DNA of 45,066 nt from an uncultured Eubacteriales bacterium (GCA_902764915.1 CACWXY010000067.1:1-45066); one strand, 5' to 3'. Shown: positions 27,611-44,070, counted from the stretch's first letter. Translations and numbers: made by a program. Notes: a model not told the origin generated them from the sequence alone.

Positions 27611-27692
27611 TATTGCAAATTTGAGTAACACGTGATGACCGAATCGTACATCAAACATAGCCAAAAATCGATCATTTTGGCACGTTATTTTT

Positions 27693-28618: not shown

Positions 28619-28888
28619 CCTCCTTTCTATTCGTGCATGTTGACATTGTATCACCAAATAATATAATGGAAAACAGTTTGTTGATCACTTATGGTGAGGA
28701 TTGAAGGCCGAGGTGATATGGACGATCCGGTTGTTTGCCATGTACAGACAACTGTAATTTTACGATTCTCGTTGATGAATCCTGAGTATAACATTATAAT
28801 AGTTCCTGACGCAGAGACACATTTCATGATTGTGTCTCGAAGACAGAAAAATACAAATATACAGCCCCATGCAGTATATCTCATTTCC

Positions 28889-30691
28889 ATGGAAACATAC
28901 AGCAATTTCTGCATTTGTCACAATTATGCTGAGGCAAGCAAAGGCTTTTTTGCAAGCAGGCGCATCCGCTGTGCCTGCGGGAATATCATCGATGTCAAAA
29001 CCGATCGAATGGCTACCATGACCTGTCCTTCATGCGGTAATGATGTGGTATATGATCAGGCAAAGGGCCGGGATGCCAAATGCCCGGTCTGTCATGCAAA
29101 CCTGATTTCCGATGCGTCCTTCAGCAACCTGGTTCATTTCCGCTGTGCCACCTGCGGCTGCCAGCTGCATGCCGACAAGGCGGCTGCCACAATCACCTGC
29201 CCGGTGTGCGACGCTGTCAGTGATGTGCAGCAGGAGCTCAAAAAGGCGGAAATGCGCGAGCAGGGGATCCCCGCGGTCATCAGCTATGAAGGGGACAATA
29301 CTGTCTTTGTGTGGAAGCATCCCATGACGGACTTTGTCACAGGCAGCCAGCTGATCGTTCATGAGAGCCAGGAAGCAGTCTTCTTCCGCAATGGAGAAGC
29401 ACTGGATTCGTTTGGCCCCGGCCGTTATACCCTGGAGACAGGGATCCTTCCGAAAATGAATCAGCTGTACCGTATACCGGTCCAGGGACAGCCCTTCCAT
29501 GCGGAGGTCTATTTCGTCAACCTGACCACCCAGATGGGAATCAAATGGGGGACCGCCAGCAAGGTGGGACTCTTTGATCCGGCCACAGGGCTGCATGTGG
29601 AACTGGGCGCCTCCGGCTCCTTTAACCTGCGCGTGACAGATCCCAGAAAACTGCTGATCAAGCTGGTCGGTACGACAGGCAGTCTCACCCAGCGCGATCT
29701 GTACGACAGCGGGAATACAGGGGTCTCCGCGGGCGCGTCCACAGGCGTTCAGAAGGGCTACTTCCGCACCATGATTGCCACCAGGGTCAAGGGAAACCTG
29801 GCCAGGATCATCAAGACGAATCAGTTCAATGTGCTGGAACTGGATGAACATGTGGATAGCATCAGTACGGCGCTGAAGGATGCCATCAATCCGGAACTCG
29901 AGGAATATGGCCTTGAGATGCCGGAGTTCTATGTGGCCAATATTGTCACTCCGGACGATGATCCCAACTTCCGCCGGCTGAAACAGCAGCACGCGGAAAT
30001 GTATCTGAAAGTCCGGGAGGAAGCAATCCGCAAGGCAGAAGCGGAAGCCGCGTTTGAACGCAAGGCTGTGGAAGCCCAGACGGCGGCCCGCATGAAAGTG
30101 ATCGGCGCACAGGGCGAAGCGGATGCGGCCCGTATTACCGGACAGGCACAGGCGGACGTGTACCGTATGCAGGCTGAGGCAGAAGCACAGGAAATGCGCA
30201 TGAAGGGATACACATACCAGCAGGAGACAGCACGTCAGGTGGGCGTCGAGGCCATGCGCAATGGCGGAGGTGCAGGTGTCACCGGTATCGCAGGCGAAGC
30301 GATGCAGCTGGGTGTGGGCCTTGGCGCTGTGGGCGGTGTGATTGGCATGACCCGTGAGGCGATTCAGCCGATGATGCAGTCTGTTGGAGAGATGGCACAG
30401 CCTGCCGGGACGCAGCCTGTCGGGACGCAGCCTGCCGCGGCCCAGCCGGAGAGCTGGAACTGTACGTGCGGCAAGACCGGTATTACCAGCAGATTCTGCC
30501 CGGAGTGCGGCGCGAAGAAACCGGAACCGCCCAAGCCCTGGGACTGCAGCTGCGGGGAGAAGGGCATTACCAGCAAATTCTGCCCCAACTGTGGTGCGAA
30601 ACGACCGGAGACCTGGGACTGCCCAGCCTGCGGTGCAAAGAGACTGAGCGGCAAGTTCTGCCCGGAGTGCGGCGCGAAGAAGCCTGAATAA
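28889..30691 (+). CDS. SPFH/band-7 (YdjI-like, 'virion core protein' type) protein with N-terminal zinc ribbons and three C-terminal zinc-ribbon repeats.
   Basis: - The N-terminus has CxxC pairs: CPSCGNDVV...CPVCHANLI, CATCGCQ...CPVCDAV.
- The central region is an SPFH-like beta/alpha core plus a long Ala/Glu/Gln coiled coil: ISYEGDNTVFVWKHPMTDFVTGSQLIVHESQEAVFFRNGEALDSFGPGRYTLETG....
- The C-terminus has three repeats of W(N/D)CxCG(K/E)xGITS(R/K)FCPxCGAK.
- The start is uncertain: ATG at 28889 or 29009. The ORF-track start at 28691 lies in AT-rich promoter DNA. Confidence 0.7.
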   Translation: METYSNFCICHNYAEASKGFFASRRIRCACGNIIDVKTDRMATMTCPSCGNDVVYDQAKGRDAKCPVCHANLISDASFSNLVHFRCATCGCQLHADKAAATITCPVCDAVSDVQQELKKAEMREQGIPAVISYEGDNTVFVWKHPMTDFVTGSQLIVHESQEAVFFRNGEALDSFGPGRYTLETGILPKMNQLYRIPVQGQPFHAEVYFVNLTTQMGIKWGTASKVGLFDPATGLHVELGASGSFNLRVTDPRKLLIKLVGTTGSLTQRDLYDSGNTGVSAGASTGVQKGYFRTMIATRVKGNLARIIKTNQFNVLELDEHVDSISTALKDAINPELEEYGLEMPEFYVANIVTPDDDPNFRRLKQQHAEMYLKVREEAIRKAEAEAAFERKAVEAQTAARMKVIGAQGEADAARITGQAQADVYRMQAEAEAQEMRMKGYTYQQETARQVGVEAMRNGGGAGVTGIAGEAMQLGVGLGAVGGVIGMTREAIQPMMQSVGEMAQPAGTQPVGTQPAAAQPESWNCTCGKTGITSRFCPECGAKKPEPPKPWDCSCGEKGITSKFCPNCGAKRPETWDCPACGAKRLSGKFCPECGAKKPE

Positions 30692-30866
30692 GAGAAACAG
30701 TGGATGGCTTGCAACGGCGAGAACCACATAGTTCTGAAGAACCAAAACCAGTACTGTGATGGATAAGTCCCGATGCTTTCTGTTTTCAGGATTACCACGC
30801 GAAGCAATATGCAGACGATGTCTTCAGAATAAGTTAGACATAGTATGACTTCAAGGAGAAAATACG

Positions 30867-33452
30867 ATGGCAGCATTGACCTGTAAGATGTGCGGCGGAA
30901 ACCTGGTGCTGACAGCAGACAGCAACGTCTGTGAGTGTGAATTCTGCGGAACCCGGCAAACAGTGCCCAATGCGGACAATGAGAAGAAGACCACACTCTT
31001 TAACGAGGCGAACCGTCTGCGGATGAACGCAGAATTTGATAAGGCGGCAGCAGTGTACGAGAGCATTGTCGCTGAATTCCCGGAGGAGGCTGAGGCCTAC
31101 TGGGGCCTTTGTCTGTGTACTTACGGCATTGAGTATGTGGATGATCCTGCAACGGGAGAAAAGAAACCCACCTGTCATCGGACGATGCCGCTGTCCATTA
31201 TGGAGGACAGCAATTTTGAGCAGGCCTGTGACTGTGCGGATGTTGTCGCCCGGCGGGTCTACCGGGATGAGGCAAAGGCCATTGACCGCATTCAGAAGGA
31301 TATCCTGTCCATCGTGAGTAACGAAGCGCCTTATGACGTATTTATCTGCTACAAGGAGACCAGTGAGGAAGGCAGCCGTACAGAGGACAGTGTGCTGGCA
31401 CAGGACATCTATGATGCTCTGACAGCAAAGGGACTGAAGGTGTTCTTCAGCCGGATTACGCTGGAGGATAAGCTGGGACAGCAGTACGAGCCGTATATCT
31501 ACGCGGCGCTTGCCTCGGCAAAGGTGATGGTCGCGGTGGGTACACAGTATGAGTATTACGATGCCGTGTGGGTGAAGAACGAATGGATGCGGTTCCTGGC
31601 CATGATGAAGAACGACCGGACCAAGACGCTGATTCCCTGCTTCAAGGATCTGGATGCCTATGACATGCCCAAAGAGTTCAAGCAGCTGCAGGCGCAGGAC
31701 ATGGGAAAGCTGGGCTGGCTGCAGGATCTGACGCGGGGCATTCTGAAACTGTGCGGGAAAGAAAACGGCACTGTGGGAAACAGTGCGGAACATGGGCCGC
31801 AGTCAGTGGTGCAGCAAACAGTGATCGGCGGCAATCCCACAGCGGTGGGTCTGCTGCAGAGGGCGAAGCTTTTCCTGGAGGATCAGAAATGGGAAGAAGC
31901 AGATCAGTATGCGGAACGTGTATTGGATATCGAACCAATGAACGCGGAAGCGTATCTGGTAAAGCTGATGGCGGAACTGAATGTCAGCAAGGAAGAAGCA
32001 CTGGCAGAACAGAAAATGCCTTTTGGTCAGTATGACAATTATCAAAAAGCTGTTCGTTTTGCGGATGAGGCGCGGAAGCAGCAGATCAAAGCGTTGAACG
32101 AAAAGGTGGAACAGCGCTACAGAGAAGAAAAAGAAAGGGCAGAAAACGCTCGAAAAACAGCCGTATTGGAAAAAGCAAAGACTGCATTGAAAGCGGCAGA
32201 ATCGCTGGAAGAATGCCAGGCGGTAACAGATATGCTGGGATCCATTGCCGGTTTTGCTGGCGTGACGGATATCATGGCGGGATGCACAGCAAAAGCTGCT
32301 GAAATCGAAGCGGTTAATGCTCGAATTGCAACAATGGAAACCGAATTAAAGGAGCAGCAGGAGAGATATCAGCAGGCATCAGAAAAAGCAATGGTTATTC
32401 ATCGTCAGCTCCAAGATACAGAAAAGGACAGAGACCGAATCGCTGCGTTACTGAAGAATGCCGAAAATGAGCTGAGCAATCTTCGGGGGCTTTTCACAGG
32501 AAAAAAGAGAGCAGAATTGGAGGCGGTAATCGCAACGAAAAGCAAAGAGCTCGCTAATGTTGAGGACCAGCTGGCAAAGGAGCAGTACGCTTACCAAACC
32601 GCACAAAACGGAATTCCTGAACAGCCAAACGAAACAGAAGTGAAATACATTATTGCAAACGAATATATGCAGGCCGGTCTTTATCGGAAAGCCTATAAGC
32701 GGTATAAACAGATTGTGGGATATAAAGACGTTGAAAGTCTGTTGAAAGATGATGATAATCTTGCAGCAGCAGTAGCAGCGGCACAGGAAGCAAAACGTGC
32801 ATCTTATCGCAATGTAGGGGGTTACGCAGTTTTTGGAAGTTATCCTCAAACTGCTGACGGTGTAGACAGCACTCCCATTGAGTGGCTTGTGCTGGACTAT
32901 GATGCGGAAAAGGACTGTGCATTGCTTATCAGTCGATACGGATTGGATGCGCAGCCATACAATAAAGAATGGACAAGCATTACTTGGGAACAGTGCACGC
33001 TGCGGACTTGGCTGAATGATACATTCCTGAACAAGGCATTTACAGCGCAGGAACAAACAGGAATTCTGGTGACCAACGTAGACAACAGCAGCAGTCAGGG
33101 ATACAGCAAGTGGAGTACCAGTGGAGGAAACAATACACAGGACAGGATTTTCCTGTTGAGCTATGCGGAGGCGAACAAGTATCTTGATGTTACGCATGAT
33201 AACAGTAACAACATGAAATCGAGAGTAGCACCGACAAACTATGCGAAAAAGCAGGGAGCCGTGACATGCAGCGACGACAAAACTGCGGATGGTGCAGCTG
33301 CAGGGCAGTGGTGGCTGCGTTCCCCCGGCTACTATCAGAGCCATGCCGCGCTCGTGTTCTGCGTCGGCTCTCTCGTCAACAGCAATGCCAGCGATGAAAA
33401 TGGTTGTGTTCGCCCTGCTTTGTGGATCAATCTGGAATCTGATATCTTCTGA
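30867..33452 (+). CDS. Zinc-ribbon / TIR-domain / coiled-coil / C-type-lectin-fold protein. This is the DGR target (variable) protein.
   Basis: - N-terminus: the zinc ribbon MAALTCKMCGGNLVLTADSNVCECEFCGTRQTV.
- TIR domain at aa ~156–290: YDVFICYKETSEEGSRTEDSVLAQDIYDALTAKGLKVFFSRITLEDKLGQQ...VMVAVGTQYEYYDAVWVKNEWMRFL. It has the DVFISY-like betaA, the G-L-K-VF alphaA/betaB and the W-x-x-x-E region.
- Coiled coil at aa 380–600.
- The C-terminal ~220 aa have a DUF1566/FGE-like C-type-lectin fold ending ...GQWWLRSPGYYQSHAALVFCVGSLVNSNASDENGCVRPALWINL. The VR is here.
- The RBS is aaggag. Confidence 0.8.
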   Translation: MAALTCKMCGGNLVLTADSNVCECEFCGTRQTVPNADNEKKTTLFNEANRLRMNAEFDKAAAVYESIVAEFPEEAEAYWGLCLCTYGIEYVDDPATGEKKPTCHRTMPLSIMEDSNFEQACDCADVVARRVYRDEAKAIDRIQKDILSIVSNEAPYDVFICYKETSEEGSRTEDSVLAQDIYDALTAKGLKVFFSRITLEDKLGQQYEPYIYAALASAKVMVAVGTQYEYYDAVWVKNEWMRFLAMMKNDRTKTLIPCFKDLDAYDMPKEFKQLQAQDMGKLGWLQDLTRGILKLCGKENGTVGNSAEHGPQSVVQQTVIGGNPTAVGLLQRAKLFLEDQKWEEADQYAERVLDIEPMNAEAYLVKLMAELNVSKEEALAEQKMPFGQYDNYQKAVRFADEARKQQIKALNEKVEQRYREEKERAENARKTAVLEKAKTALKAAESLEECQAVTDMLGSIAGFAGVTDIMAGCTAKAAEIEAVNARIATMETELKEQQERYQQASEKAMVIHRQLQDTEKDRDRIAALLKNAENELSNLRGLFTGKKRAELEAVIATKSKELANVEDQLAKEQYAYQTAQNGIPEQPNETEVKYIIANEYMQAGLYRKAYKRYKQIVGYKDVESLLKDDDNLAAAVAAAQEAKRASYRNVGGYAVFGSYPQTADGVDSTPIEWLVLDYDAEKDCALLISRYGLDAQPYNKEWTSITWEQCTLRTWLNDTFLNKAFTAQEQTGILVTNVDNSSSQGYSKWSTSGGNNTQDRIFLLSYAEANKYLDVTHDNSNNMKSRVAPTNYAKKQGAVTCSDDKTADGAAAGQWWLRSPGYYQSHAALVFCVGSLVNSNASDENGCVRPALWINLESDIF
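33308..33417 (+). other. DGR variable repeat (VR) at the 3' end of the target gene.
   Basis: The 110 bp are collinear with the TR at 36464–36573. Most mismatches sit where the TR has A (AAC/AAT codons). Confidence 0.6.
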
Positions 33453-33493
33453 TCTTTAATCTTTTGCGGGCAGTATACGGAAGAATGGGTAAA

Positions 33494-33630
33494 GCTGCAT
33501 GTGACTATGCAATTATGCGCCAATGAAAAGACGCTGCCCTGGATCAGGTGATGCAGATTACCTGCGTATATTATAAAAGCCATATATCTTGCTAGTTTTG
33601 CAGGATGTATGGCTTTTATGTTCTTATTCA
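33494..33630. repeat. ~140-bp direct repeat, copy A (~90% identical to 39664–39803). It contains a rho-independent terminator hairpin at ~33577–33622.
   Basis: The repeat reads gctgcatgtgactatgcaattatgcgccaatgaaaagacgctgccctggatcaggtgatgcagattacctgcgtatat...aaagccatatatcttgctagttttgcaggatgtatggcttttatgttcttattca. Confidence 0.7.
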
Positions 33631-34212
33631 CAATATAAGGAATGGATGCTTATGAAGACGGATGGCACACGATCCGTCCACGAATGCTTTGCATGAAGAG
33701 ATATCTATTAAATCACCATGTAAAGCAAGAAAATAGCTACGAGATCCCCATCTGATGTATGAGATTATTCATAAAATCAACAACAGAGGCGCGCAATTAT
33801 CCATAAAATCATCAATCAGACAGGAATAATATATAATGAACGAAAAGACAAAAGAGAACATCAAATAAATATCTACAAAGCATATACTATATGCATAATA
33901 AACGAATAAAATATTAACATAATAGCTATAATCTACTGCAATATCAAAGAAATATATAAAAATACCATGTCAAATGGTATCGACAGGTCTATTGCATCAG
34001 CAGTCCTGCCCATACAGTGTGGCCTATGGCTGACAATGGGACTTCCATAGAACATAAAGGATTACAGAATATGATAATAGCGCCTATATAGATACAAAAT
34101 ATCAATAAAATATATTAAAAATAGTAAATCATAATGATAGAAATATTGATATTTTCACATATTTCGCATACAATCTCAGCATGTGGTATTGCAACAGACA
34201 GGAGGCCACAAG

Positions 34213-34500
34213 ATGCAATTAATGGGACTCACAGTTGTGTTTACTGGGAAAATGCAGCGCTTGACCCGGGCACAGTGCAGAGAACTTGTGCTTTTGGCCG
34301 GCGGCATTGTTCAAAGCAATGTCAGCAGATATACAGATATCCTGGTTGTCGGCGCTTTTCGAAAAAGTCAACCGTGTGGTATCAGCTACAAACTGGAGCG
34401 AGCACTCTTCCTGTCTCGATCAGGATATCACATAAGAATAATACACGAGGATGAGTTTTATGAGATGCTGGGGATCCAACACTGGACCAACTGGTTGTGA
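34213..34500 (+). CDS. Stand-alone BRCT-domain protein (~95 aa).
   Basis: The protein reads MQLMGLTVVFTGKMQRLTRAQCRELVLLAGGIVQSNVSRYTDILVVG.... It resembles the LigA C-terminal BRCT (GxxxVxTG...R.E......GG.V..SVS.KTD.LV.G). The RBS is ggagg. It lies in a 30%-GC insert. Confidence 0.55.
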   Translation: MQLMGLTVVFTGKMQRLTRAQCRELVLLAGGIVQSNVSRYTDILVVGAFRKSQPCGISYKLERALFLSRSGYHIRIIHEDEFYEMLGIQHWTNWL

Positions 34501-34694
34501 AATCTTGATGCACAACAGCATGGTATGTCTTCCGTGCAGCCCTGTTGTGCAATTAGGCTGTCCGCCATTTATGGCACATGCAAAAAATACATTCACGACT
34601 CCAGGTGCACAAAAATCAGCTAGGAGAGGATGTGCATATAGAGTAAACCCTAGATGCGCACATCCAGTTAGTCCTGGAGAGGAGAAGATCGACG

Positions 34695-35276
34695 ATGGCA
34701 CGAATCGCATACATCAGAGTAAGCACAGAAGAACAAAACACCGCCCGTCAGGATTCCATGATGGATAAGCAGAATATCGATAAGACATTCACTGAAAAGA
34801 TCAGCGGTAAGAATACGGCACGGCCAGAGCTGCAGAGGATGCTGGAGTATATTCGAGAAGGTGACGTAGTCATCGTGGAAAGTTACAGCCGGTTAGCCAG
34901 GAGCACCAAGGATCTTCTCACACTTGTTGAGCAGATTCACGGTAAAGGTGCTGATTTCGTGTCTCTCAAAGAGAACGTAGATACCTCCACACCACAGGGA
35001 AAGCTTATGATGACAATCTTCGCTGGCCTTGCCCAGTTTGAGCGTGAACAATTGCTGCAGAGACAAAAAGAAGGCATCGCTGAAGCTAAAAAGCGCGGTG
35101 CCTATAAAGGTCGAAAACCCATCGTAATTGATGAAGATAGATGGAAGGAAGAAACATCTGCGTGGCGGGCAGGGAAACAATCCGCAGTGGTTACCATGCA
35201 GCATCTTGGGCTGAAACCACGCACATTCTACAATCGGGTGAAGGCGGAAGAATGTGACAGCGGTGGAAAAGAATGA
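34695..35276 (+). CDS. Small serine recombinase (resolvase/invertase family).
   Basis: The protein begins MARIAYIRVSTEEQNTARQ with a catalytic Ser at position 10. It has the ...GDVVIVESYSRLARSTKDL...KLMMTIFAGLAQFERE... core and a C-terminal HTH. The RBS is ggagaggag. Confidence 0.85.
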   Translation: MARIAYIRVSTEEQNTARQDSMMDKQNIDKTFTEKISGKNTARPELQRMLEYIREGDVVIVESYSRLARSTKDLLTLVEQIHGKGADFVSLKENVDTSTPQGKLMMTIFAGLAQFEREQLLQRQKEGIAEAKKRGAYKGRKPIVIDEDRWKEETSAWRAGKQSAVVTMQHLGLKPRTFYNRVKAEECDSGGKE

Positions 35277-35531
35277 GGGCACAAACTACTTTCATAGCGA
35301 TACAAGCATAATAGGAAGAAACGCATACACGGTAACCAATGTTTTGAATCCAAACGCTGCTCCATCGGTTATTATTGCGTCATCCGAAAATGAAGCGCTG
35401 GAGATTTATGCTGCGCTATATCATGAGATAACGATGCAAGTCGTAACTACTGAATTGCATTCCTTTCTTCGCGCTCAATTCTATCCTTTATGGTGTGTGG
35501 CGGATCTTAATTACGTGGATCCTAATTGATT

Positions 35532-35951
35532 CTATGCGGAACGCATGACCTCTTCATTCTCTGCAGATGGATCGAGCGCCTTTTCGATGTCGATGTAGTA
35601 ATAGCGGTCGATCTCCTTGCCCTTGTCCGTTTTCGTATGGACGGGCTTGTCGCTGTACAGAGCGTTGAAGATGGACGTCAGCCGCTGCTGGCCGTCAAGA
35701 ATAAGCTCACTGGGCACAGTCCCTTCAGGAACAACGGCGCCTTCGATGGGCTTGTACTTGAACTGAATCTCAGGGTTTCCATAGGTCAGGAACATTGCCG
35801 CGCCGACCGGGAAATTGTGGATGATGCTGGCAATCAGGGCCTTGATGCGGTTATCGTCCCATACCCAGCCGCGCTGAAAGTCCGGGAGCTGTGCTGCGCC
35901 TGACTGAACTGCCTTCATCAGATCCGTAATGGTTCTGTCGTTTGTTCTCAT
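35532..35951 (-). pseudogene. Truncated N-terminal DUF262 (ParB/Srx-like, GmrSD-type) fragment. The C-terminal nuclease half is absent.
   Basis: The translation has LPDFQRGWVWDDNRIKALIASIIHNFPVG...LDGQQRLTS, the DUF262 hallmark (DGQQR). Full-length members are ~550–600 aa. This fragment stops after 139 aa. Confidence 0.6.
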
Positions 35952-36056
35952 TGTCTAATTCTCGCTTTAGATGTACAATAATCACTCTCTTTAATCCTCT
36001 TTAATCCTCTTACTTTTTTAGCCAATTTAAGAGATTAAGAAGATTCATGCAATTAC

Positions 36057-36290
36057 GTGATGACCATCACACAGAAATCTCCAAAACAGTTCCGCTTCTC
36101 ATTGATTGGCCGCATGCAGGGCTATGTGATGGACATCGTGGAAGAACTGTATTATGCCAACGACATCTATGTCACACCCGCGAGCCGCTCGGGCTGGGCG
36201 CAGCGCCAGGCGCACCAGCGGAAAGCGATGGCGCCCCTGAAACTTCTCTCCTGGGTGGCGCAGGTCAGTATGGAACAGGGAGCGATTTAG
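36057..36290 (+). CDS. Small basic ORF immediately upstream of the TR. Weak candidate for the DGR accessory variability determinant (Avd).
   Basis: The only basis is position, upstream of the TR in a DGR. It is 77 aa, shorter than typical Avd (~110–130 aa), with no recognisable four-helix signature by eye. Confidence 0.2.
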   Translation: MMTITQKSPKQFRFSLIGRMQGYVMDIVEELYYANDIYVTPASRSGWAQRQAHQRKAMAPLKLLSWVAQVSMEQGAI

Positions 36291-36463
36291 CCGAAACAGT
36301 TTCAGCAGATCAGTGAGCAGTGCTGGAATACGCAGAATCTGCTTGGCGCGTGGATCATCAGCGATCAGAAGCGACTGAGCGGCGGAAAACAGAAGCAGGA
36401 ATCATCAGATCAGGGATCAGCACCCGAATAGGGTGTTCATCTGGGTACGGTATTGTACGGGTG

Positions 36464-36573
36464 GTGGTGGCTGCGTTCCCCCGGCACCAATCAGGACAAT
36501 GCCGCGAACGTCAACAATGACGGCTCTCTCAACAACAACAATGTCAACAATGACAGCGGTTGTGTCCGCCCCG
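36464..36573 (+). other. DGR template repeat (TR).
   Basis: Within this region, tggtggctgcgttcccccggcaccaatcaggacaatgccgcgaacgtcaacaatgacggctctctcaacaacaacaatgtcaacaatgacagcggttgtgtccgcccc is collinear with the VR. It is rich in AAC/AAT where the VR varies. A GC-rich structured spacer with a GNRA-looped hairpin (ctgcccgtGCGAacggcag) follows at 36590–36820. Confidence 0.65.
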
Positions 36574-36821
36574 TTTCCCCTTGCTTGCCAGCAGTCTGCC
36601 CGTGCGAACGGCAGCCAGTGCCCTGGGGAGAAGGAATACCGCTCCCTTTCGCAGGGAATTCCTCCGCAAGCGCTGCGGAGCCCTCGGAAAAACATGCCGA
36701 CGGAGGCCCGGACGGCGGGTGAAACAGACCGCCTTTCGCAATGCCTTTGGGACGCAGGGTTTGGCTTTATTCCTCTCGCCCTGCGTCCCCCGAGCGGCGA
36801 CTTTAAAACAGGAGGTTCATC

Positions 36822-37259
36822 ATGCTGAACATATGGTTTGGCGATATGCCGGATGTCATCTACGACACATCCACCTACTTCAGGCATTCTTACCGGGATC
36901 AATGGATCACCGACCCGCTGTCCGTGGAAATGATTCGTGATGTGGACCAGTCTGAAGTGGTCGATGCCAATCTGATTCAGAGCCCGGTCTTCGGTGCGAT
37001 TTCCCCTGTCCAACTGTCCGGTGGTGTCAAGACACTGATCCTGATCAGCAAGGTCAGGGATCAGGTCTTCAACGCGTCCAAATGCGGAGACAATTGCGCG
37101 AAGTGGCTGCTGAGGATCGCTGCAGACAGGAAAGTCGTTGTCAATCTCCGCCACCTTATGGACTTTGGGAATGAAGAGTTCAAAATCATGGTGATGAACA
37201 AAAAGAAGATTGCGCACAATATGCGGGAGCTCGTCCTGCTCGCGGGCGAGTATGTGTGA
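36822..37259 (+). CDS. Hypothetical 145-aa protein, first gene of the TR-downstream operon. It contains an LSGG-like motif (QLSGGVKTLILISK).
   Basis: The RBS is a strong aggagg. It lies 7 nt upstream of the ATPase gene. I recognise no family by eye. Confidence 0.5.
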   Translation: MLNIWFGDMPDVIYDTSTYFRHSYRDQWITDPLSVEMIRDVDQSEVVDANLIQSPVFGAISPVQLSGGVKTLILISKVRDQVFNASKCGDNCAKWLLRIAADRKVVVNLRHLMDFGNEEFKIMVMNKKKIAHNMRELVLLAGEYV

Positions 37260-37265
37260 GGCGTC

Positions 37266-38237
37266 ATGAACGGAAAGCATGCAGTAAAAGTCTCTGATAA
37301 GAGAGTTCGGTACAGCTTCGAGCTGGTGCGGAATATCACCGTCGTTCAGGGCAACAGCGGCACGGGCAAAACGACACTGTTTGATATGATATCTGCCTAT
37401 ACCAGGCTCAAGGAAAGAAGCGGCGTACAGATTGTCTGCGACAAGGCATGCGTTGCTCTTCACGCCGATTCAGACTGGCAGGCAAGGCTCAGAAGTATTC
37501 ATGACAGCATTGTCTTCATTGACGAGGATGCAGAATACATCGCGTCACATGCCTTTGCCTCATCCATCTGTCATACGGATAACTACTATGTCATCTTCTG
37601 CAGGGAATCCCTTCACGAACTCCCGTACAGTGTGGAGGAGATTTACGAAATCAAGACCAGTAAAAGGCTTCATACTTTCAAGAAGATGTATCGCCGGCAG
37701 AAGGATTATGTGTACGCCAAAGCTGAGGGAAGGGCAAAGACTTCTGCTTTACTGACAGAAGACTCGCATGCAGGGTATCAGTTTTACCTGCATCATTACG
37801 ATGGCACATCGGTTGTCTGCAGTTCTGCCGGCTCAAATTCAAGCATCTTTTCATGGCTTCAGGTGCATCACGATGAAAAAGTGTTTGTTGTTGCCGATGG
37901 TGCTGCTTTCGGCTCGGAGATGAACCGCGTCATGAAATTGCAGCACCAGTTTCCTGACAAGATCACCCTATGCCTGCCAGAATGCTTTGAGTGGCTGATC
38001 CTGCAATCGGGACTGATCGATATACCAGGCCTGGATGCACTGCTCGAAAGCCCAAGCGAAAGCATCGATTCACAGCGGTATTTCAGTTGGGAGAACTTTT
38101 TCGAAGAATACTTGATTCAGCAGACAGCCGGTACTCATTACGCATATTCCAAGTCGCAGATTCACAGGTTCTACACAGTGCGGGAGAACAGCAACAGAAT
38201 CGTAGCGCTGATCGCAGCCAATATGCCGAAATCATGA
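37266..38237 (+). CDS. P-loop NTPase (ABC/SMC-like Walker A).
   Basis: Walker A is VVQGNSGTGKTTLFDMI. A Walker-B-like SIVFIDEDAEYI is present. A C-terminal ~150-aa domain reads ...KVFVVADGAAFGSEMNRV.... The stop is 2 nt before the RT start. Confidence 0.6.
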   Translation: MNGKHAVKVSDKRVRYSFELVRNITVVQGNSGTGKTTLFDMISAYTRLKERSGVQIVCDKACVALHADSDWQARLRSIHDSIVFIDEDAEYIASHAFASSICHTDNYYVIFCRESLHELPYSVEEIYEIKTSKRLHTFKKMYRRQKDYVYAKAEGRAKTSALLTEDSHAGYQFYLHHYDGTSVVCSSAGSNSSIFSWLQVHHDEKVFVVADGAAFGSEMNRVMKLQHQFPDKITLCLPECFEWLILQSGLIDIPGLDALLESPSESIDSQRYFSWENFFEEYLIQQTAGTHYAYSKSQIHRFYTVRENSNRIVALIAANMPKS

Positions 38238-38238
38238 C

Positions 38239-39303
38239 ATGCGCAAGTTTGATTATGATAGGATTTGTGACTTTGGCAATCTCTACCGCGCCTATCTTGC
38301 TTCAAGACGAAGCAAGCGCGGTACTCGGGAAGTCATTCAATTCGAGATGAATGTAGGCCCAAATCTCTGTCAGTTACAGGAAGAACTCAGGAACCAGACT
38401 TATCGGCTTAGCGGTTACTACCACTTTACCATCCATGATCCGAAGGTCAGGGAGATCTACGCCCTGCACTATCGTGACCGGATTCTGCAGCACAGCCTTT
38501 GTGATAATGTGCTGGCTCCATATTTTGAGAATCATCTCATCTATGACAACGCAGCCTGTCGGACCGGAAAAGGAACCCTCTTTGCAATTAACCGGCTCAA
38601 CGGATTTATGCATGATCATTTCCGACAGCATGGAACTGACGGCTACTTTCTGAAGTGTGACATCCGCAAGTTCTTTGACAGTATTGATCATCAGATCTTG
38701 CAGCAGAGACTTGCGGCGATTGTTGACGATCCGAGAACGCTGCAGCTTCTCTTTCACATCATTGACAGTTACAAGGTGTCTCCCGGGAAAGGGATTCCCA
38801 TGGGGAACCAGACCAGCCAGTGGTTTGCCCTGTTTTATCTGGATCCGCTCGATCGTCTTGTCAAAGAAAAGCTCCGAATCAAATACTATACCCGATACAT
38901 GGATGACTGCATTCTGGTGCATCACAGCAAGGAGGCGCTCCACCAAGCTCTGTCTCAGATGCGGGAATTGGTTGAAAGCCTTGGGCTTTCTTTCAACGAA
39001 AAGACCCAGGTTTTCCCCATTGTTCACGTTGTTGAGTATTTGGGATGGCGTTTCTATCTGACGGAAACCGGCGCTGTGGTTCGCAGGCTGAAGAAGCACA
39101 GCAAGATCCGATGGAAGCATAGGCTGCGGAAGCTCAAGGCCCTCTATGCTTCAGGCGATGTAGAAGTCTCAAAGATCCTTGAAAGCGTTCAGAGCTTTCA
39201 TAACCACATGAGTTACGGGAATACATGGAAATTGTATCACGGCGTCATGGACAACTATGTTTTGACAAGAGAAACAAGAAACCCGAGAGTACCTCCTTCA
39301 TAA
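38239..39303 (+). CDS. Diversity-generating retroelement (DGR) reverse transcriptase.
   Basis: - The N-terminus reads ICDFGNLYRAYLASRRSKRGTREVIQFE....
- RT motifs: FTIHDPKVREIYALHYRDRILQHSL (1/2), FLKCDIRKFFDSIDH (A), GIPMGNQTSQWFALFYLDPLD (DGR-specific I/MGxxxSQ motif), YTRYMDDCIL (YxDD). Confidence 0.9.
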   Translation: MRKFDYDRICDFGNLYRAYLASRRSKRGTREVIQFEMNVGPNLCQLQEELRNQTYRLSGYYHFTIHDPKVREIYALHYRDRILQHSLCDNVLAPYFENHLIYDNAACRTGKGTLFAINRLNGFMHDHFRQHGTDGYFLKCDIRKFFDSIDHQILQQRLAAIVDDPRTLQLLFHIIDSYKVSPGKGIPMGNQTSQWFALFYLDPLDRLVKEKLRIKYYTRYMDDCILVHHSKEALHQALSQMRELVESLGLSFNEKTQVFPIVHVVEYLGWRFYLTETGAVVRRLKKHSKIRWKHRLRKLKALYASGDVEVSKILESVQSFHNHMSYGNTWKLYHGVMDNYVLTRETRNPRVPPS

Positions 39304-39338
39304 TCGCTGAATGAGAGTCAAAACAGATGATCGTCCGC

Positions 39339-39376
39339 AACCGCTGCTCAGCATTTGTCTGGCAGCGGTTTTTCTC
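39339..39376 (+). terminator. Rho-independent terminator after the RT (AACCGCTGC ... GCAGCGGTT followed by TTTTTCT).
   Basis: Seen directly in the sequence. Confidence 0.6.
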
Positions 39377-39663
39377 TGCTGTCATTTGGGTCTTGACAAC
39401 TACTCAGCCATGATACAGTTCTTCGTATAGGACGGTTGTCTTTCCGTGTGTTACTGCACCGTAGATAGAGGGGACAGGAATACAGCGCCTGCGCATTTCC
39501 AACATTGTCCCCCGTTCAATTTCTGTTGTGATCTTCGCCACAAATACCTGCGGGAACACACCATCTTACGACACCAACGGCTTACCTTTCGTAGTGACCT
39601 TTACGCATTTATAGTCACTGGTAAATGCTGTGCCCTGGAACAGTATACTGCATAGTGGATAAG

Positions 39664-39803
39664 GTTGCATGTGACTATGCAATTATGCGCCAATGAAAAA
39701 ACGATGCCCTGGATCAGGTGATGCAGATTACCTGCGTATATGATAATAGCCATACATCTTGTTTGATTTTTGCAGGATGTATGGCTTTTATGTTCTTATT
39801 CAA
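39664..39803. repeat. ~140-bp direct repeat, copy B (see 33494–33630). It contains a perfect terminator hairpin, AGCCATACATC...GATGTATGGCT-TTT.
   Basis: Seen directly in the sequence. Confidence 0.7.
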
Positions 39804-39814
39804 TTCTATCAATA

Positions 39815-40075
39815 TTAGGAATGTTGGATGGAACCAGGCATGTCGATCTTCCCGCGAATCACAGACAGATCTTCTTTGTGGCTGAGGTATTCGCGATACA
39901 GCCCCTGTTTCAATTGCCGTCCGATGCCTTTTGCAAGGATGGCGGCAAAAAGGTTGTGCAGGTTCTCAAATGCCTCTGTCTCTACGCTTTCGTAGCCGCC
40001 CTGATGCAGCGCCGTGAAAGCATAGGACAGCATGTAGTAAATGTTCCTGATGAAGATACTCTTATCCTTCGTCAT
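39815..40075 (-). pseudogene. N-terminal fragment (86 aa) of an McrC-like subunit of the McrBC restriction system.
   Basis: The fragment reads MTKDKSIFIRNIYYMLSYAFTALHQ...RGKIDM. It matches the conserved McrC N-terminus (E. coli: IPVRNIYYMLTYAWGYLQ...IKGRIEF). The remaining ~260 aa are missing. Confidence 0.55.
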
Positions 40076-40316
40076 TGAAACACACCACGCAGTATATTCT
40101 CCCAGCGCTGCAGCCTGCCTGCGTCATCGAACCAGTACTCGCTCAGCATGGGAAGAATCTTATCGAGCTCCGGCACCACCCGGTAAATGCGGAAGGGCTG
40201 ATCCCGCAACTGGCGGGATTCCACCATGGAGGAGGTCGCCTCGGATGCGAAGCCCTCCGTGTGATCCAGCACCAGGTAGGTGGTGGACATATACCCGTGC
40301 TTTCCGTCAGGGGCGG

Positions 40317-40721
40317 TCACCTCATACCAGCTGCTGTTGGTCTTGGCGATGACCTGTACAAAGGAGCCGTTTTATAGGTCGCCAGCACCTTGTACTTGGT
40401 GCCCGGCCCGGAGTGCAGGCGCAGGGTGCCTTTCCGGGTTTCCGCGCCGGAAAAGTCCGTGTTCACCCGCCAGACCTCCGTCCGGTTATCGTCACCAGGA
40501 GCGGTAAAGTTCACGCGGGGCGTCATGGCGGCAGGCACCGGAGCGCGAAGAATGCAGCCCTCCGCCAGCCGCTGCCATTTCCCAGCTTCATCGATGGGAT
40601 GCACCAGAGTCAATTCATATTCGCCGTTCAGCGTTTCCGTGACCTCCGCCGACAACGGAGCCAGGGTTCCGTTGCCGTTAGTAGAGAAGTCGGTGCAGTC
40701 GGCGGGATAGACGCAGATCAT
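40317..40721 (-). pseudogene. Phage tail-fibre / tail-endopeptidase (Tal-like) N-terminal fragment. The adjacent ORF 40072..40320 is an unassigned fragment.
   Basis: The fragment reads MICVYPADCTDFSTNGNGTLAPLSAEVTETLNGEYELTLVHPIDEAGKW.... This resembles the N-terminus of siphovirus Tal / prophage-tail proteins (M.I.LYD..F..NG.G.L......V.EELNGEYEL). The RBS is ggaggtg. Confidence 0.4.
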
Positions 40722-40799
40722 GGGGATCACCTCCAGATGGGTATGAAAATAGCCCCGTCCATGCTGAACGAGGCTTGAGTATTAAATCGCTGTAGACGA

Positions 40800-41209
40800 T
40801 TATGCCTGCATTTTTTGATTAATCCGATTGACCTTCATCCGAATGCTTACATAGATAATCAGCCAGATTGCAGCAAAGGCTGCAATAAATATCAGGGTAA
40901 ATGCTCCGATCCTTTCAACGGGAAGCCAGCCGTTCAGAAGATAGATTCCCATATAGTCAATATAAAGCACTGCCATTTGGATAAGCGCTGCCATTGGCTT
41001 GGGCAGGGTTTCGATCTGATAGACAATGGAAACACCAGCGGCAATAAACGCCATTACTGTTGTTGAAATAATTCCAAGCACGACCTGGTCAACCGCCAAT
41101 GTTTCCAGAACGCCAGCTGCTTTCAGGCACAGCCATACAATCGCCATAATCACAGGGCCACCCCATGCGGCAACCAGTCCTCGCTTACAGAAATTCTTCA
41201 CATGCTTAT
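40800..41209 (-). CDS. DUF3021-type 4-TM membrane protein, the usual partner of LytTR regulators.
   Basis: The protein reads MNKHVKNFCKRGLVAAWGGPVIMAIVWL.... It sits immediately downstream of, and abutting, the LytTR gene. Confidence 0.65.
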
Positions 41210-41650
41210 TCATAATCCGTACCTCCTCTTCAAATCCGAGAAGCATCTTCTTGAAATGCATTCGGTATATCCGCTTTTGAAAACAGCATCGACAGCCCCG
41301 GAAAGCTGCACGCGGAATCGACCTATGTGTGACCAGTTGGCAATCGCTGATTTGCTGATCCGCTCATAATGGCCCGGCAGATTCTTCTCTAACTCGTACA
41401 GTCTTTTCCTGATCAGGTACTGTTTTCCGTCCTGACAATGAGCATAAGTCCGCTCCCCTTCAACGAAGAAACAATCAATCTCCCTCAGATCGAGCATGAC
41501 GATTTCTTCTTCCTCATAACCGGGAATCTGGTCTGTCAGACTGTCCTGTGTCACAAGGCGTTCTATCTCATCGATCAATGGCGTCCGTTGATGAACGGTT
41601 GCTACGATTTCCTCTTCATGGTTCCGATCCAGCTGCAGCTTGAAGATCAT
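41210..41650 (-). CDS. LytTR-family DNA-binding protein (stand-alone).
   Basis: The protein reads ...IVMLDLREIDCFFVEGERTYAHCQDGKQYLIRKRLYELEKNLPGHYERISKSAIANWSHI.... The RBS is ggaggtg. Confidence 0.7.
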   Translation of the reverse strand: MIFKLQLDRNHEEEIVATVHQRTPLIDEIERLVTQDSLTDQIPGYEEEEIVMLDLREIDCFFVEGERTYAHCQDGKQYLIRKRLYELEKNLPGHYERISKSAIANWSHIGRFRVQLSGAVDAVFKSGYTECISRRCFSDLKRRYGL

Positions 41651-41761
41651 CTATCTGATCACCTCCTACAGTTGGCATTATACAAAGAGAAAATCAGTTT
41701 GTCAGGAAATTTCGGTATTCGGTATTTTTGAAGAGGTAAACGGTCATTTTTCGTACTGCTA

Positions 41762-42460
41762 TTAAAGATATCGCCAATTCGGCTTGATAACCACCTTCGT
41801 CACTACTCCCGTCCACGATATGGCATTCGTGCCGGGCTTCAGCACCGGGAACTCACCGTTCATGTGATCGTTCATCAGGGTAGTACCCTGATAGGCTTCC
41901 TGCAGCATGGAGTCGATAACGATGCTCCCGGAGATGTTCTCCAGTTCCACGATGGTCGTGCCCACCATGAGCGTGATGTTCCCGGAGCCTGTGACCGTCA
42001 GGATCGGCTCAGAATGCACGCAGCCCGGATTCGTGATGATCGTCCCGGATGCGGTGACTGTGATGTCAGTGGCAGCGTCGGCATAGAAGAACGGATAGCA
42101 GCGGAAGTTGACGGCAAAGGTACAGTGCGGATTGCCCCGGAGCACCTTTTCAAAAGGGACCTGGTTGGCGATCCGCGCTTTATAGTAGCCACCCGTCCGG
42201 TTGGCAAAGGTCACGGTGCCGCTGCCTTTCAGCCAGGCGGCAATAGCCGGGATCTGCGCCGGATCGGAGATAAAGCAAGTGGCAGTCAGGATCATGTCGT
42301 CATACACGTCTTCGCCTTCCAGCTGCGTCAGGCTCCCCGGCCTGCCGGGCACATTGGTCTGGGTGCTTCGCTCCAGCGGGATGGTAATAGGCGGCTGCTC
42401 CGTCACGTGGATGCCGTAGGTGCGGCAGTCCACCCCGTTCCAGAGAAAATAGTCCTGCAT
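41762..42460 (-). CDS. Siphovirus-type distal tail protein (Dit / Sipho_tail family).
   Basis: The 232-aa protein is beta-rich: MQDYFLWNGVDCRTYGIHVTEQPPITIPLERSTQTNVPGRPGSL.... Length and motifs are typical of the Dit N-domain. The RBS is ggagag. Confidence 0.55.
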   Translation of the reverse strand: MQDYFLWNGVDCRTYGIHVTEQPPITIPLERSTQTNVPGRPGSLTQLEGEDVYDDMILTATCFISDPAQIPAIAAWLKGSGTVTFANRTGGYYKARIANQVPFEKVLRGNPHCTFAVNFRCYPFFYADAATDITVTASGTIITNPGCVHSEPILTVTGSGNITLMVGTTIVELENISGSIVIDSMLQEAYQGTTLMNDHMNGEFPVLKPGTNAISWTGVVTKVVIKPNWRYL

Positions 42461-42505
42461 ATAGACTCTCCTCGCGCTTTGAATGATTGTATGATATGAT
42501 TCTTA

Positions 42506-42524
42506 TATCCCCCCAGGGGGGATA
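42506..42524. promoter_or_regulatory. Perfect 19-bp GC palindrome TATCCCCCCAGGGGGGATA, a CsoR/RcnR-type operator overlapping the csoR-like promoter/RBS region.
   Basis: Seen directly in the sequence. CsoR-family operators are GC-tract inverted repeats of this form. Confidence 0.55.
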
Positions 42525-42537
42525 AGGAGGATGCGTT

Positions 42538-42816
42538 ATGAGTGAACACGCGCATAAGCATACGGAAACCAAAAACGTCATCAACCGCATATCCAGAGCT
42601 TCCGGGCATCTGGAAGCAATCAAGAAGATGGTGGAGGAAGAACGGGACTGCAGCGAGATTCTGATCCAACTTGCAGCTGTGCGCTCCGCGATCAACAGCA
42701 TCGGAAAAATCGTTCTTGCCGATCATATGGAGCACTGCATTGCGGAGGCTGTTGAGCACGGGGATCACGACGCACTGGACCGCTTCAACGACGCCATCGC
42801 CAAATTCCTGAAGTGA
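42538..42816 (+). CDS. CsoR/RcnR/FrmR-family metal-sensing transcriptional repressor.
   Basis: The 92-aa protein has ...RISRASGHLEAIKKMVEEERDCSEILIQLAAVRSAINSIGKIVLADHMEHCI.... The conserved C-x-H-C ligand pattern is present (C47, H73, C77 by approximate count). The RBS is aaggagg. Confidence 0.8.
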   Translation: MSEHAHKHTETKNVINRISRASGHLEAIKKMVEEERDCSEILIQLAAVRSAINSIGKIVLADHMEHCIAEAVEHGDHDALDRFNDAIAKFLK

Positions 42817-42825
42817 GGCTACGAC

Positions 42826-43692: not shown

Positions 43693-44070
43693 AAAGAAGC
43701 CGCCCGAAAGCGGCCTCCTCTCAGCCATTCTTCAGTCGATTCTGCGGACGCGGTCTATCCCATGGATCGCCGCCAGTGTTGAGCCGTTGGCCCAGGCAAT
43801 ATTCATTGCATATTTTCCGAGGCATTTTCCGAAATTGAGATCCGTGTTTTGTCCCTCGGTAAAATGAAAGATATTGCAGGAACAGCAGAAATACTTGAAT
43901 CTGCCACCTTTGTTAGCTGAGTTTTCCACGAATCCTTGCTGGGGATTTCTTCGTTTGCCCGTTCCAGCGTTAGCAATCTAACAATTATACAGCTGGCATG
44001 ATGCCCATCTCCAGATCTGAAAGAGGCGCGAAATCCTTATGTAGAGCCAGTTTCCGCCATCACATCCGCT

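What the first reader, a model, noticed from the sequence alone, without database searches (positions are those of the whole stretch)
33494..39803. ~140-bp direct repeats (each with a terminator hairpin) bracket a 6-kb module holding a serine recombinase, a BRCT protein and the DGR TR/RT
- Copy A (33494–33630) follows the target gene's stop. Copy B (39664–39803) follows the RT terminator.
- They are ~90% identical and in the same orientation.
- Between VR and TR sits a 30%-GC insert (33640–34180) followed by a BRCT-only protein and a resolvase-type serine recombinase.
- Resolvases act on directly repeated res sites. So the repeats could make the TR/RT module excisable (an on/off or mobilisation mechanism).
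- They could equally be the scar of a duplicative insertion that separated VR from TR.
Basis: seen in the sequence. Interest (0 to 1): 0.65.

Follow-up and report, generated by a model that had tools for sequence, protein, structure and literature searches.

The report
Duplicated terminator flank around decayed DGR
The two ~180-nt direct repeats are real, but they look like two copies of the terminator-bearing stretch that normally follows this kind of hypervariable gene, left behind by rearrangements in a decaying defence locus, and not like a recombinase-driven on/off switch.

Summary
The repeats exist and run further than reported: A 33471-33648 and B 39641-39829, same strand, 89.5% identical. 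Each ends in a 20-bp-stem intrinsic terminator. There are only two copies. None was found in GTDB genomes, JGI metagenomes, viral contigs, plasmids or phages, so this is not a REP-like element.

The res-site/excision reading is not supported.
- The resolvase has its own res-like site just upstream of its gene (34509-34665). It holds six GCACA motifs and two dyads, and it is the best-conserved part of the module.
- The repeats contain none of those motifs.
- A 90%-identical BRCT-resolvase module elsewhere in the same metagenomes has no such repeat nearby.
- No contig of this strain shows a deletion or circle junction (four span both copies; samples from six assemblies plus two Logan runs).

Relatives have target, a ~200-aa ORF, bAvd, TR and RT in one uninterrupted block. 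Here about 2.6 kb of foreign mosaic sits between target and avd: an AT-rich spacer, the resolvase module and a GmrSD fragment.

The DGR looks dead. Avd lacks about 19 codons and carries a premature TAG, 13 of 29 TR/VR mismatches are not at adenines, and VR is invariant across samples.

The 5' end of the repeat resembles the post-target flank of relatives. Best reading: a duplicated 3' flank and terminator, a passive rearrangement scar. Ordinary, low interest.

The parts
30867..33452 (+). DGR target gene (TPR-TIR-DUF6273, 861 aa); VR about 33308-33420
   Evidence: Pfam TIR_2 and DUF6273. VR/TR repeat. 95-96% identical to L079 up to the stop codon.
33471..33648 (+). Repeat copy A. 5' part 33471-33494, near-identical core 33495-33572, terminator hairpin 33573-33619 plus T-run, short tail to 33648.
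33649..34145 (.). AT-rich (28-36% GC) non-coding spacer of unknown origin
   Evidence: Composition. No ORF called in any contig. No similarity to any fetched locus or protein.
34146..35506 (+). 1.36-kb BRCT-resolvase-91aa module with its own promoter-like site (34146-34174). BRCT gene 34213-34500, resolvase 34695-35276, 91-aa ORF 35254-35529.
   Evidence: Pfam. Promoter scan. 90% identical paralogue in L008-L015. Catalytic YIRVSTEEQ motif intact.
34509..34665 (.). Candidate res-like site of the resolvase. Six GCACA/TGTGC motifs. Dyads TGCACAACAG/CTGTTGTGCA (34509-34518 / 34542-34551) and GGATGTGC/GCACATCC (34628-34635 / 34658-34665).
   Evidence: 13-fold motif enrichment. The intergenic stretch is 96.4% identical between paralogues against 82-92% for the coding parts. 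Function is inferred.
35532..35951 (-). N-terminal fragment of a GmrSD-type restriction gene (139 aa, profile positions 2-106 of 199)
   Evidence: Pfam. PADLOC HEC-05/SspE-like hits.
36047..36431 (+). bAvd pseudogene. Homology to the 144-aa bAvd of relatives starts at about codon 20. Premature TAG at 36288-36290, where the three aligned relatives (L084, L074, L080) encode Gln.
   Evidence: tblastn and DNA alignment with L084, L074 and L080. bAvd Pfam hit for relatives only.
36459..36576 (+). Template repeat (TR)
36822..39303 (+). DUF4869 gene (36822-37259), P-loop ATPase (37266-38237) and DGR reverse transcriptase (38239-39303)
   Evidence: Pfam. The block 36048-39333 is 96.6% identical to L084.
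39340..39418 (+). RT terminator hairpin (39340-39376) and the conserved right edge of the DGR cassette. It ends in the left half (39405-39416) of a palindrome that is complete in L016.
   Evidence: Sequence. Comparison with L016 and L020.
39419..39640 (.). 222-nt stretch of unknown origin between the DGR edge and copy B
   Evidence: No similarity to any locus or protein fetched.
39641..39829 (+). Repeat copy B. Its right end covers the last four codons and the stop codon of the truncated McrC-like ORF.
39815..40075 (-). Truncated McrBC/McrC-like ORF (86 aa, profile positions 34-105 of 318)
   Evidence: Pfam.

Best explanation
Both copies are versions of the non-coding 3' flank (3' UTR plus a Rho-independent terminator) that follows DGR target genes of this family.

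- Copy A is in its natural place after the target gene.
- Copy B is an orphaned or duplicated copy that now lies after the RT block and abuts a truncated McrC gene.
- The copies are passive by-products of the recombination events that built this mosaic defence locus. About 2.6 kb of foreign DNA (AT-rich spacer, BRCT-resolvase-91aa module, GmrSD fragment) was inserted between target and avd. The TR-RT block may also have been exchanged (it is near-identical to that of a locus with a different target; below).
- Their only likely present function is to terminate plus-strand transcripts.
- The resolvase is unrelated to them and has its own res-like site in front of its gene.
- The DGR itself is decaying.

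Shown: the repeat, the insertion relative to relatives, the avd lesions, the lack of variants, and the lack of shared motifs. Inferred: the origin of the repeat as a target flank, the terminator function, and the order of events.
For: - Relatives carry target, a ~200-aa ORF, bAvd (144 aa), TR, sometimes DUF4869+ATPase, then RT, with no such repeat.
- Homology to them stops at about 33465-33483 and resumes at about 36047.
- The first 26 nt of copy B match the post-target flank of L080 in the same register (p=0.0006). Copy A matches L016 and L080 weakly (p about 0.055).
- Differences between A and B are clustered: identical runs of 37, 35 and 34 nt, p=0.002. That pattern is expected for two diverged alleles that recombined or were partly homogenised. 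It is not expected for a recent simple duplication.
- Two of the three substitutions in the terminator stem are U-G/C-G exchanges that keep pairing on the plus-strand RNA.
- More distant family members have targets on both sides of the RT (L034, L058), so a lost second target is plausible.
- The locus is chimeric. The target side is 95-96% identical to L079. The TR-RT side is 96.6% identical to L084, whose target is only 72% identical.
- The candidate res lies elsewhere.
- The paralogous module has no repeat nearby.
- The same structure is found in all contigs.
Against: - The core of the repeat (33495-33572) has no detectable counterpart in the flanks of relatives. The 'target flank' origin therefore rests on about 25 nt.
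- No relative with RT identity of 70% or more has a target downstream of the RT.
- The near-identity of the 80-nt core could reflect selection for an unknown function.
- Metagenome assemblies give consensus sequence and would miss rare excision products.
- Two contigs break inside the repeat.
Confidence: 0.55

Rival explanations
1. Campbell-type insertion. A circular 6.2-kb DNA carrying its own copy of the flank, the resolvase module and a TR-RT block integrated by recombination within the flank downstream of the target. The two repeats are then attL/attR-like hybrids, and the module can be lost again by homologous recombination.
For: - Direct repeats bound exactly one segment.
- Differences are clustered around long identical tracts, as expected near a crossover.
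- The TR-RT block is 96.6% identical to that of L084, which has a different target.
- TR and VR are poorly matched.
- The left end of copy A adjoins native target flank, and the right end of copy B adjoins the McrC remnant.
Against: - No empty site (target, single repeat, McrC) and no circle junction in any contig.
- No tyrosine or large serine integrase lies inside the segment.
- The 3' end of the window's TR matches the window's VR type rather than L084's TR, so the block is not simply foreign.
- The sister strain L079 diverges right at the stop codon and has a different downstream arrangement, not an empty site.
Confidence: 0.2
2. The repeats are directly repeated res sites, and the small serine recombinase excises the TR/RT module as an on/off or mobilisation switch.
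For: - Two copies in direct orientation enclose the resolvase gene.
- The resolvase looks catalytically intact and is related to Gin invertase and gamma-delta resolvase.
- Each repeat contains short dyads: TGCAT-N6-ATGCA and CAGGTGAT-N4-ATTACCTG.
- The tetranucleotide TGCA, which is part of the TGCACA form of the motif clustered upstream of the resolvase gene, is also 4-5-fold enriched in the repeats (4 and 5 copies against about 1 per 194 nt in the window).
Against: - The dyads share no common half-site.
- The repeats contain 0 GCACA, while 6 are clustered in dyads directly upstream of the resolvase gene. That is the canonical position of res and the best-conserved part of the module.
- The paralogous module (90% identical) has no such repeat within 10 kb.
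- More distant resolvase homologues sit in unrelated contexts.
- The structure is identical in all contigs.
- The DGR that would be switched is already disabled.
Confidence: 0.04
3. The repeat encodes a functional RNA (a 3'-UTR-derived sRNA or a cis-acting element) that is kept in two copies by selection. That would explain the 97.5%-identical 80-nt core.
For: - Both copies fold better than shuffles (z -4.8 and -4.1).
- The core is far more conserved than the flanks.
- A terminator lies at the 3' end.
Against: - No Rfam match, even at E up to 5.
- The outer stem predicted in A is broken in B.
- No homologue anywhere else.
- The only polymorphism seen in the population falls in the core (33510 C>T in L003).
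- No convincing promoter in the repeat.
Confidence: 0.1
4. The repeat is a dispersed REP/MITE-like intergenic element, or the end of a mobile element.
For: - Both copies start at the same base (CAGTATAC).
- Hairpin-rich structure.
Against: - Only two copies in 45 kb, and none in other contigs from the same samples.
- Zero exact matches to 21-24-nt core words in GTDB genomes, in JGI metagenomes (two different words) or in viral contigs, and no blastn match of the whole repeat in plasmids or phages.
- No terminal inverted repeats or target-site duplication visible.
Confidence: 0.03

Closest known systems
res sites of Tn3/gamma-delta-type resolvases (and Sin/beta 'six' sites)
   Same: - Two copies of 100-200 nt in direct orientation on one molecule.
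- A small serine recombinase gene between them.
   Different: - Known res sites lie directly next to the recombinase gene and consist of subsites built from one repeated half-site motif (established knowledge).
- Here that description fits 34509-34665, not the repeats.
- No recombination product seen.
attL/attR direct repeats of integrated genomic islands (Campbell model)
   Same: - Imperfect direct repeats bound a segment of foreign-looking mosaic DNA.
- Long identical tracts lie inside the repeats.
   Different: - No integrase of the usual kinds inside.
- No empty site found.
- The enclosed segment contains part of the resident DGR.
Multi-target DGR loci, where each target gene carries a similar VR and 3' flank
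   Same: - Relatives L074 and L079 have tandem targets. L074's two targets carry similar 3' flanks (L079's contig ends inside its second target). L034 and L058 have targets on both sides of the RT.
- The repeat starts at the end of the family-conserved post-target block.
   Different: Copy B has no target gene and no VR upstream.
Rho-independent (intrinsic) terminators
   Same: - 19-20-bp stem followed by a T-run after two convergent or co-directional gene blocks.
- Stem substitutions are wobble-compatible on the plus strand.
   Different: The repeat includes about 100 nt more than a terminator needs.

Membership tests
res site of a small serine resolvase | Lies immediately adjacent to (usually upstream of) the resolvase gene | tested here: not met
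   The right end of copy A's terminator core (33630) lies 1.06 kb upstream, with the AT-rich spacer and the BRCT gene in between. Copy B starts 4.4 kb downstream. The 34509-34665 region does meet this feature.
res site of a small serine resolvase | Several subsites made of inverted or direct copies of one half-site motif | tested here: not met
   The dyads in the repeat (TGCAT.., CAGGTGAT.., terminator arms) share no motif. GCACA count is 0 in each copy against 6 in the gene-proximal region.
res site of a small serine resolvase | Two copies in direct orientation on one replicon | tested here: met
res site of a small serine resolvase | Site co-occurs with the recombinase in related elements | tested here: not met
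   The paralogous module L008-L015 (90% identical) has no copy within 10 kb. Homologues at 65-67% identity sit in unrelated contexts.
res site of a small serine resolvase | Resolution products (deletion plus circle) exist | tested here: inconclusive
   None in the contigs of this strain: four contigs span both copies, and further partial contigs cover one copy and its flanks. Consensus assemblies cannot exclude rare products.
REP/MITE-like dispersed repeat | Many copies per genome, in unrelated intergenic regions | tested here: not met
   Two copies only in the window and none in the other contigs of the same samples. No hits in five public collections. The complete genome was not available.
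attL/attR of an integrative element | Empty site with a single copy in related genomes | tested here: inconclusive
   The sister strain L079 diverges at the target stop codon and has other genes there. No single-copy site was found.
attL/attR of an integrative element | Integrase (tyrosine or large serine) encoded inside | tested here: not met
   Only a 193-aa resolvase/invertase-type protein.
Active diversity-generating retroelement (context of the finding) | TR/VR differences confined to TR adenines | tested here: not met
   Window: 16 at TR adenines, 13 elsewhere. Relatives: 14-18 at adenines, 2-4 elsewhere.
Active diversity-generating retroelement (context of the finding) | Intact accessory gene (bAvd) and RT | tested here: not met
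   RT is intact. bAvd lacks about 19 N-terminal codons and has a premature TAG.
Intrinsic terminator | GC-containing stem-loop followed by a U-run on the transcribed strand | tested here: met
   Termination itself was not tested.

The most novel reading that the evidence does not exclude
The 6.2-kb segment bounded by the repeats is a plug-in cassette. A circularisable unit carrying a TR-RT block (and a resolvase) integrates by recombination at the conserved flank downstream of DGR target genes and can leave again. DGR template/RT modules would then be exchanged between target loci.
Probability: 0.07. Interest if true: 0.7.

Novelty: new member of a known kind. Interest (0 to 1): 0.2.

Why it matters
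If the repeats were recombinase sites, this would be the first DGR whose template/RT half can be switched off or moved by site-specific excision. The evidence points the other way.

What is there is an example of how DGR loci in gut Clostridia are broken up and reshuffled inside defence islands. A foreign resolvase module landed between target and avd. The avd gene was inactivated and the variable region froze. A TR-RT block near-identical (96.6%) to this one sits next to a quite different target gene in another locus (L084).

That is useful as a caution for DGR annotation, because an RT+TR+VR set is not necessarily active. It is also a small data point on modular exchange in DGRs. It opens no new question.

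Tried and rejected
- Rfam at gathering and at permissive thresholds: nothing for the repeats.
- Repeat searches in plasmids, phages, viral contigs, GTDB genomes and JGI metagenomes (two different words): all empty.
- nhmmer profile of the two copies against all 90 fetched loci: no third copy and no remote homologue.
- Free local alignment of the repeat to the flanks of relatives: not significant. Only the register-anchored 26-nt comparison was.
- Tested whether the stretch left of copy B (39419-39640) or the AT-rich spacer is a remnant of a target gene or any other fetched sequence: no. A weak 'EELY' match to avd on the minus strand was judged to be chance.
- A 16-nt inverted repeat (33751-33766 / 34703-34718) that could have marked an invertible BRCT segment. 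About 0.4 such pairs are expected by chance in 8 kb, and its left arm lies outside the conserved module. Not pursued.
- A second GCACA cluster with a 14-nt match at 19111-19124 lies inside a GC-rich coding region and lacks dyads. Judged to be chance.
- Search for the other half of the DGR-edge palindrome in the window: chance level.
- Attempt to extend the sister-strain locus L079 to see what follows its second target: only short contigs exist.
- 14-codon mini-ORF in the core (MQLCANEKTLPWIR): no ribosome-binding site, and only two substitutions to judge by. Not considered real.
Full report
**1. Observation**

The two repeats are real. The repeat finder reports 33471-33599 against 39641-39769 at 88%, plus an identical 35-mer at 33596-33630/39768-39802. 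blastn reports one 162-nt match at 90.1%, E about 7e-55.

The similarity continues to the right, across two indels, to 33648/39829 (p=0.001 against shuffles). There is no significant similarity further left or right. Over 181 aligned columns the copies are 89.5% identical.

Both copies end in a 19-20-bp stem followed by a T-run. Core words occur only twice in the window even with three mismatches allowed, with 0 expected. An nhmmer profile finds no third copy.

**2. Anatomy, left to right**

| Coordinates | Feature |
|---|---|
| 28691-30691 | Band7/SPFH protein with a zinc ribbon |
| 30867-33452 | Target gene |
| 33471-33648 | Repeat A |
| 33649-34145 | AT-rich spacer with no ORF |
| 34146-35506 | Module with its own promoter-like site: BRCT protein, 194-nt intergenic region, 193-aa small serine recombinase with intact YIRVSTEEQ motif and C-terminal helix-turn-helix, overlapping 91-aa ORF |
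| 35532-35951, minus strand | 139-aa N-terminal fragment of a GmrSD-type nuclease gene |
| 36047-36431 | Avd-like remnant |
| 36459-36576 | TR |
| 36822-37259 | DUF4869 gene |
| 37266-38237 | P-loop ATPase gene |
| 38239-39303 | RT |
| 39340-39376 | RT terminator |
| 39419-39640 | 222 nt of unknown origin |
| 39641-39829 | Repeat B |
| 39815-40075, minus strand | Truncated McrC-like ORF, profile positions 34-105 of 318 |

The last four codons and the stop codon of the McrC-like ORF lie inside repeat B.

**3. Relatives show what is native and what is inserted**

A scan of GTDB genomes with the RT gave 53 loci. Cluster members of the RT and of the target gave closer ones. The family order is:

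- Band7
- one or two TPR-TIR-DUF6273 targets
- a variable ORF of about 200 aa
- bAvd (144 aa)
- TR
- with or without DUF4869+ATPase
- RT

In every relative, homology to the window stops 10-30 nt after the target stop codon and resumes at about 36047. The stretch from about 33470 to 36046 is therefore an insertion into, or replacement of, the target-avd interval.

L084 is 96.6% identical to the window over 36048-39333, but its target is only 72% identical. L079 is 95-96% identical over 26158-33452. It diverges right after the stop codon, into a 214-aa ORF and a second TIR target. The locus is thus a chimera of two lineages joined across the inserted stretch.

The right edge of the DGR cassette (39418) is shared with L016 and L020. 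It falls in the middle of a palindrome that is complete in L016.

**4. The DGR looks inactive**

- Compared with the 144-aa bAvd of L084, L074 and L080, the window copy lacks about the first 19 codons. It also has TAG at 36288-36290, where those three relatives encode Gln.
- Of 29 TR/VR mismatches, 13 are not at TR adenines. Relatives have 2-4.
- The target protein, VR included, is identical in all eight contigs that carry it. The whole 15-kb locus shows at most one substitution among independent assemblies over 28990-44088, and that one is not in VR.
- VR does differ strongly from that of L079 (25 of 128 positions), so diversification happened in the past.

bAvd is required for mutagenic homing in the Bordetella phage system. 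This is established knowledge, not tested here. An excision switch would therefore control a retroelement that is already disabled.

**5. The resolvase has its own site**

The BRCT-resolvase intergenic region holds six GCACA/TGTGC motifs in 194 nt, against 0.45 expected from the window. They are arranged as two dyads (34509-34518/34542-34551 and 34628-34635/34658-34665) with two further copies between them.

A second copy of the 1.36-kb module exists in other contigs of the same samples (L008-L015, 90% identical). Between the two copies the intergenic region is 96.4% identical, while the coding parts are 82-92% identical.

Position, size (about 157 bp) and architecture are those of a res-like site. 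This assignment is an inference.

The repeats contain no GCACA at all, and their three dyads share no half-site. The second module has no copy of the repeat within 10 kb. More distant resolvase homologues sit in unrelated contexts. The protein is about equally related to Gin invertase and to gamma-delta resolvase.

**6. No structural variation**

- Four contigs from four samples span both repeats with the same structure (L001, L002, L003, L085).
- Further contigs cover one repeat and both of its flanks (L004/L087, L007, L070).
- Look-ups through the RT, the resolvase, the target and a gene to the right (LytTR) found no contig joining target to McrC or joining 39600 to 33660.
- Two contigs end inside a repeat (L071, L005). 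That is what assemblers do at repeats.

Consensus assemblies cannot exclude rare events.

**7. What the repeat is**

It is not dispersed. Exact 21-24-nt core words have no match in viral contigs, GTDB genomes or JGI metagenomes (two different words), and blastn of the whole repeat finds nothing in plasmids or phages. It matches no Rfam family.

It begins exactly where the block conserved after target genes ends (stop codon, then TCTTTAATCTTTTGCAGACAG). Aligned in that register, the first 26 nt of copy B resemble the flank of L080 (p=0.0006). Copy A resembles L016 and L080 weakly (p about 0.055). The 80-nt core has no detectable counterpart in relatives.

Differences between A and B are clustered: identical runs of 37, 35 and 34 nt, p=0.002. 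The 5' 26 nt differ at 7 positions and the next 80 nt at 2. This pattern is expected if two diverged alleles of a flank recombined, or were partly homogenised by gene conversion. It is not expected for a recent simple duplication.

Two of the three substitutions in the terminator stem keep pairing through G-U on the plus strand. That fits a terminator for the target and RT transcripts.

**8. Most likely explanation and rivals**

My preferred reading (0.55) is that the repeats are two copies of the target-type 3' flank with its terminator. They are passive products of the rearrangements that created this mosaic, and they now act only as terminators. Copy B may be the orphaned flank of a lost second target. 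More distant relatives have targets on both sides of the RT (L034, L058), but no close relative does.

| Rival | Weight | Comment |
|---|---|---|
| Campbell-type insertion of a circle carrying its own flank copy | 0.2 | Explains the bounded segment and the clustered differences. It lacks an integrase and lacks an empty site. |
| Functional RNA | 0.1 | |
| Resolvase res sites | 0.04 | |
| REP/MITE-like element | 0.03 | |

Identical tracts of 34-37 nt would allow rare RecA-type deletion under any model. That is a generic property, not a designed switch.

**9. Comparison with known systems and novelty**

The arrangement resembles res sites and att repeats only in being direct repeats around a recombinase gene. 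The defining features that could be tested for res membership were not met: adjacency to the gene, a shared half-site motif, and co-occurrence with the recombinase.

The literature searches found no report of a DGR coupled to resolvase-mediated excision. DUF6273 is already known as a DGR target domain.

This is a new instance of known kinds of things: duplicated flank or terminator sequence at rearrangement joints, and a decaying DGR in a defence island. Interest is low.

**10. Limits**

- The organism is known only from metagenome contigs. Its relatives are uncultured Clostridia/Oscillospiraceae MAGs.
- The complete genome, the raw reads and any expression data were not available.
- The origin of the repeat core, of the AT-rich spacer and of 39419-39640 remains unknown.

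Noticed in passing
L008-L015 (for example L008:8487-10835; L009:8450-10796): A second BRCT-resolvase-91aa module, 90% identical to window 34146-35506, from the same samples. It sits at the edge of a swapped defence island. To the left of a sharp breakpoint there is either BREX plus a tyrosine integrase or a Type I R-M system. The right flank is 99.9% identical (DUF772 fragment, AraC, ABC transporter).
   Followed up: partly
window 34509-34665: Res-like cluster of six GCACA motifs with two dyads directly upstream of the resolvase gene. It is more conserved between the two module copies (96.4%) than the genes themselves.
   Followed up: partly
window 28691-33452 and loci L016, L017, L021, L074, L079, L080: A large family of DGR loci in gut and rumen Clostridia. 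A Band7/SPFH zinc-ribbon protein is followed by one or two TPR-TIR-DUF6273 targets. It looks like a DGR-diversified TIR sensor or defence module.
   Followed up: partly
window 36822-38237; L016 8578-9999; L084 6594-8009: A DUF4869 gene plus a P-loop ATPase (weak LmuB / STAND-like hits) sits between TR and RT in some family members (window, L016, L084). It is absent in others with the same avd-TR-RT (L017, L074, L080).
   Followed up: no
window 39405-39418; L016 11163-11188; L020 about 2245-2275: The DGR cassette ends in a palindrome, CAGCCATGATCT-AC-AGATCATGGCTG. It is complete in L016 and imperfect in L020. The window keeps only the left half, and unrelated sequence starts at the centre, as if a joint had formed there.
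   Followed up: partly
window 36288-36290 and 36047: The bAvd gene is a pseudogene: the 5' ~19 codons are replaced, and there is a CAG>TAG nonsense codon. All same-strain contigs covering this gene share both lesions.
   Followed up: yes
window 36459-36576 vs L084 6215-6345: The TR differs from that of L084 at 16 of 118 positions, although the surrounding 3.3 kb is 96.6% identical. Several window TR bases look like mutations acquired after the last homing event.
   Followed up: partly
window 33507, 34213, 36047, 39677: The 9-mer ATGCAATTA occurs in both repeat copies, at the BRCT start codon and at the avd junction. About 0.04 such triples are expected by chance in 2.6 kb. It may be microhomology used in joint formation, or coincidence.
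   Followed up: no
window 468-527 and 3855-3914 (minus strand): Two 60-nt copies (90% identical) of a tRNA 3' half. Rfam calls only a partial tRNA at 3870-3927 and ARAGORN calls neither. They may be att-type remnants bounding a 3.4-kb segment.
   Followed up: no
window 30489-30688: Three 38-nt direct repeats (74-89% identical) encode repeated zinc-ribbon motifs (CPxCG) at the C-terminus of the Band7 protein.
   Followed up: no
window 28913/28914, 44089, 40017-40084: Small indels between otherwise identical strains. L001 and L002 have a 44-bp insertion at 28913/28914 and a 23-bp insertion at 44089. In L004, 66 nt are replaced by 28 nt, which fuses two McrC-fragment ORFs into a 155-aa ORF.
   Followed up: no
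window 19111-19124: A 14-nt exact match to the candidate res (CCAGGTGCACAAA region) and a local GCACA cluster, inside a GC-rich minus-strand ORF (18417-19418). Probably chance.
   Followed up: partly
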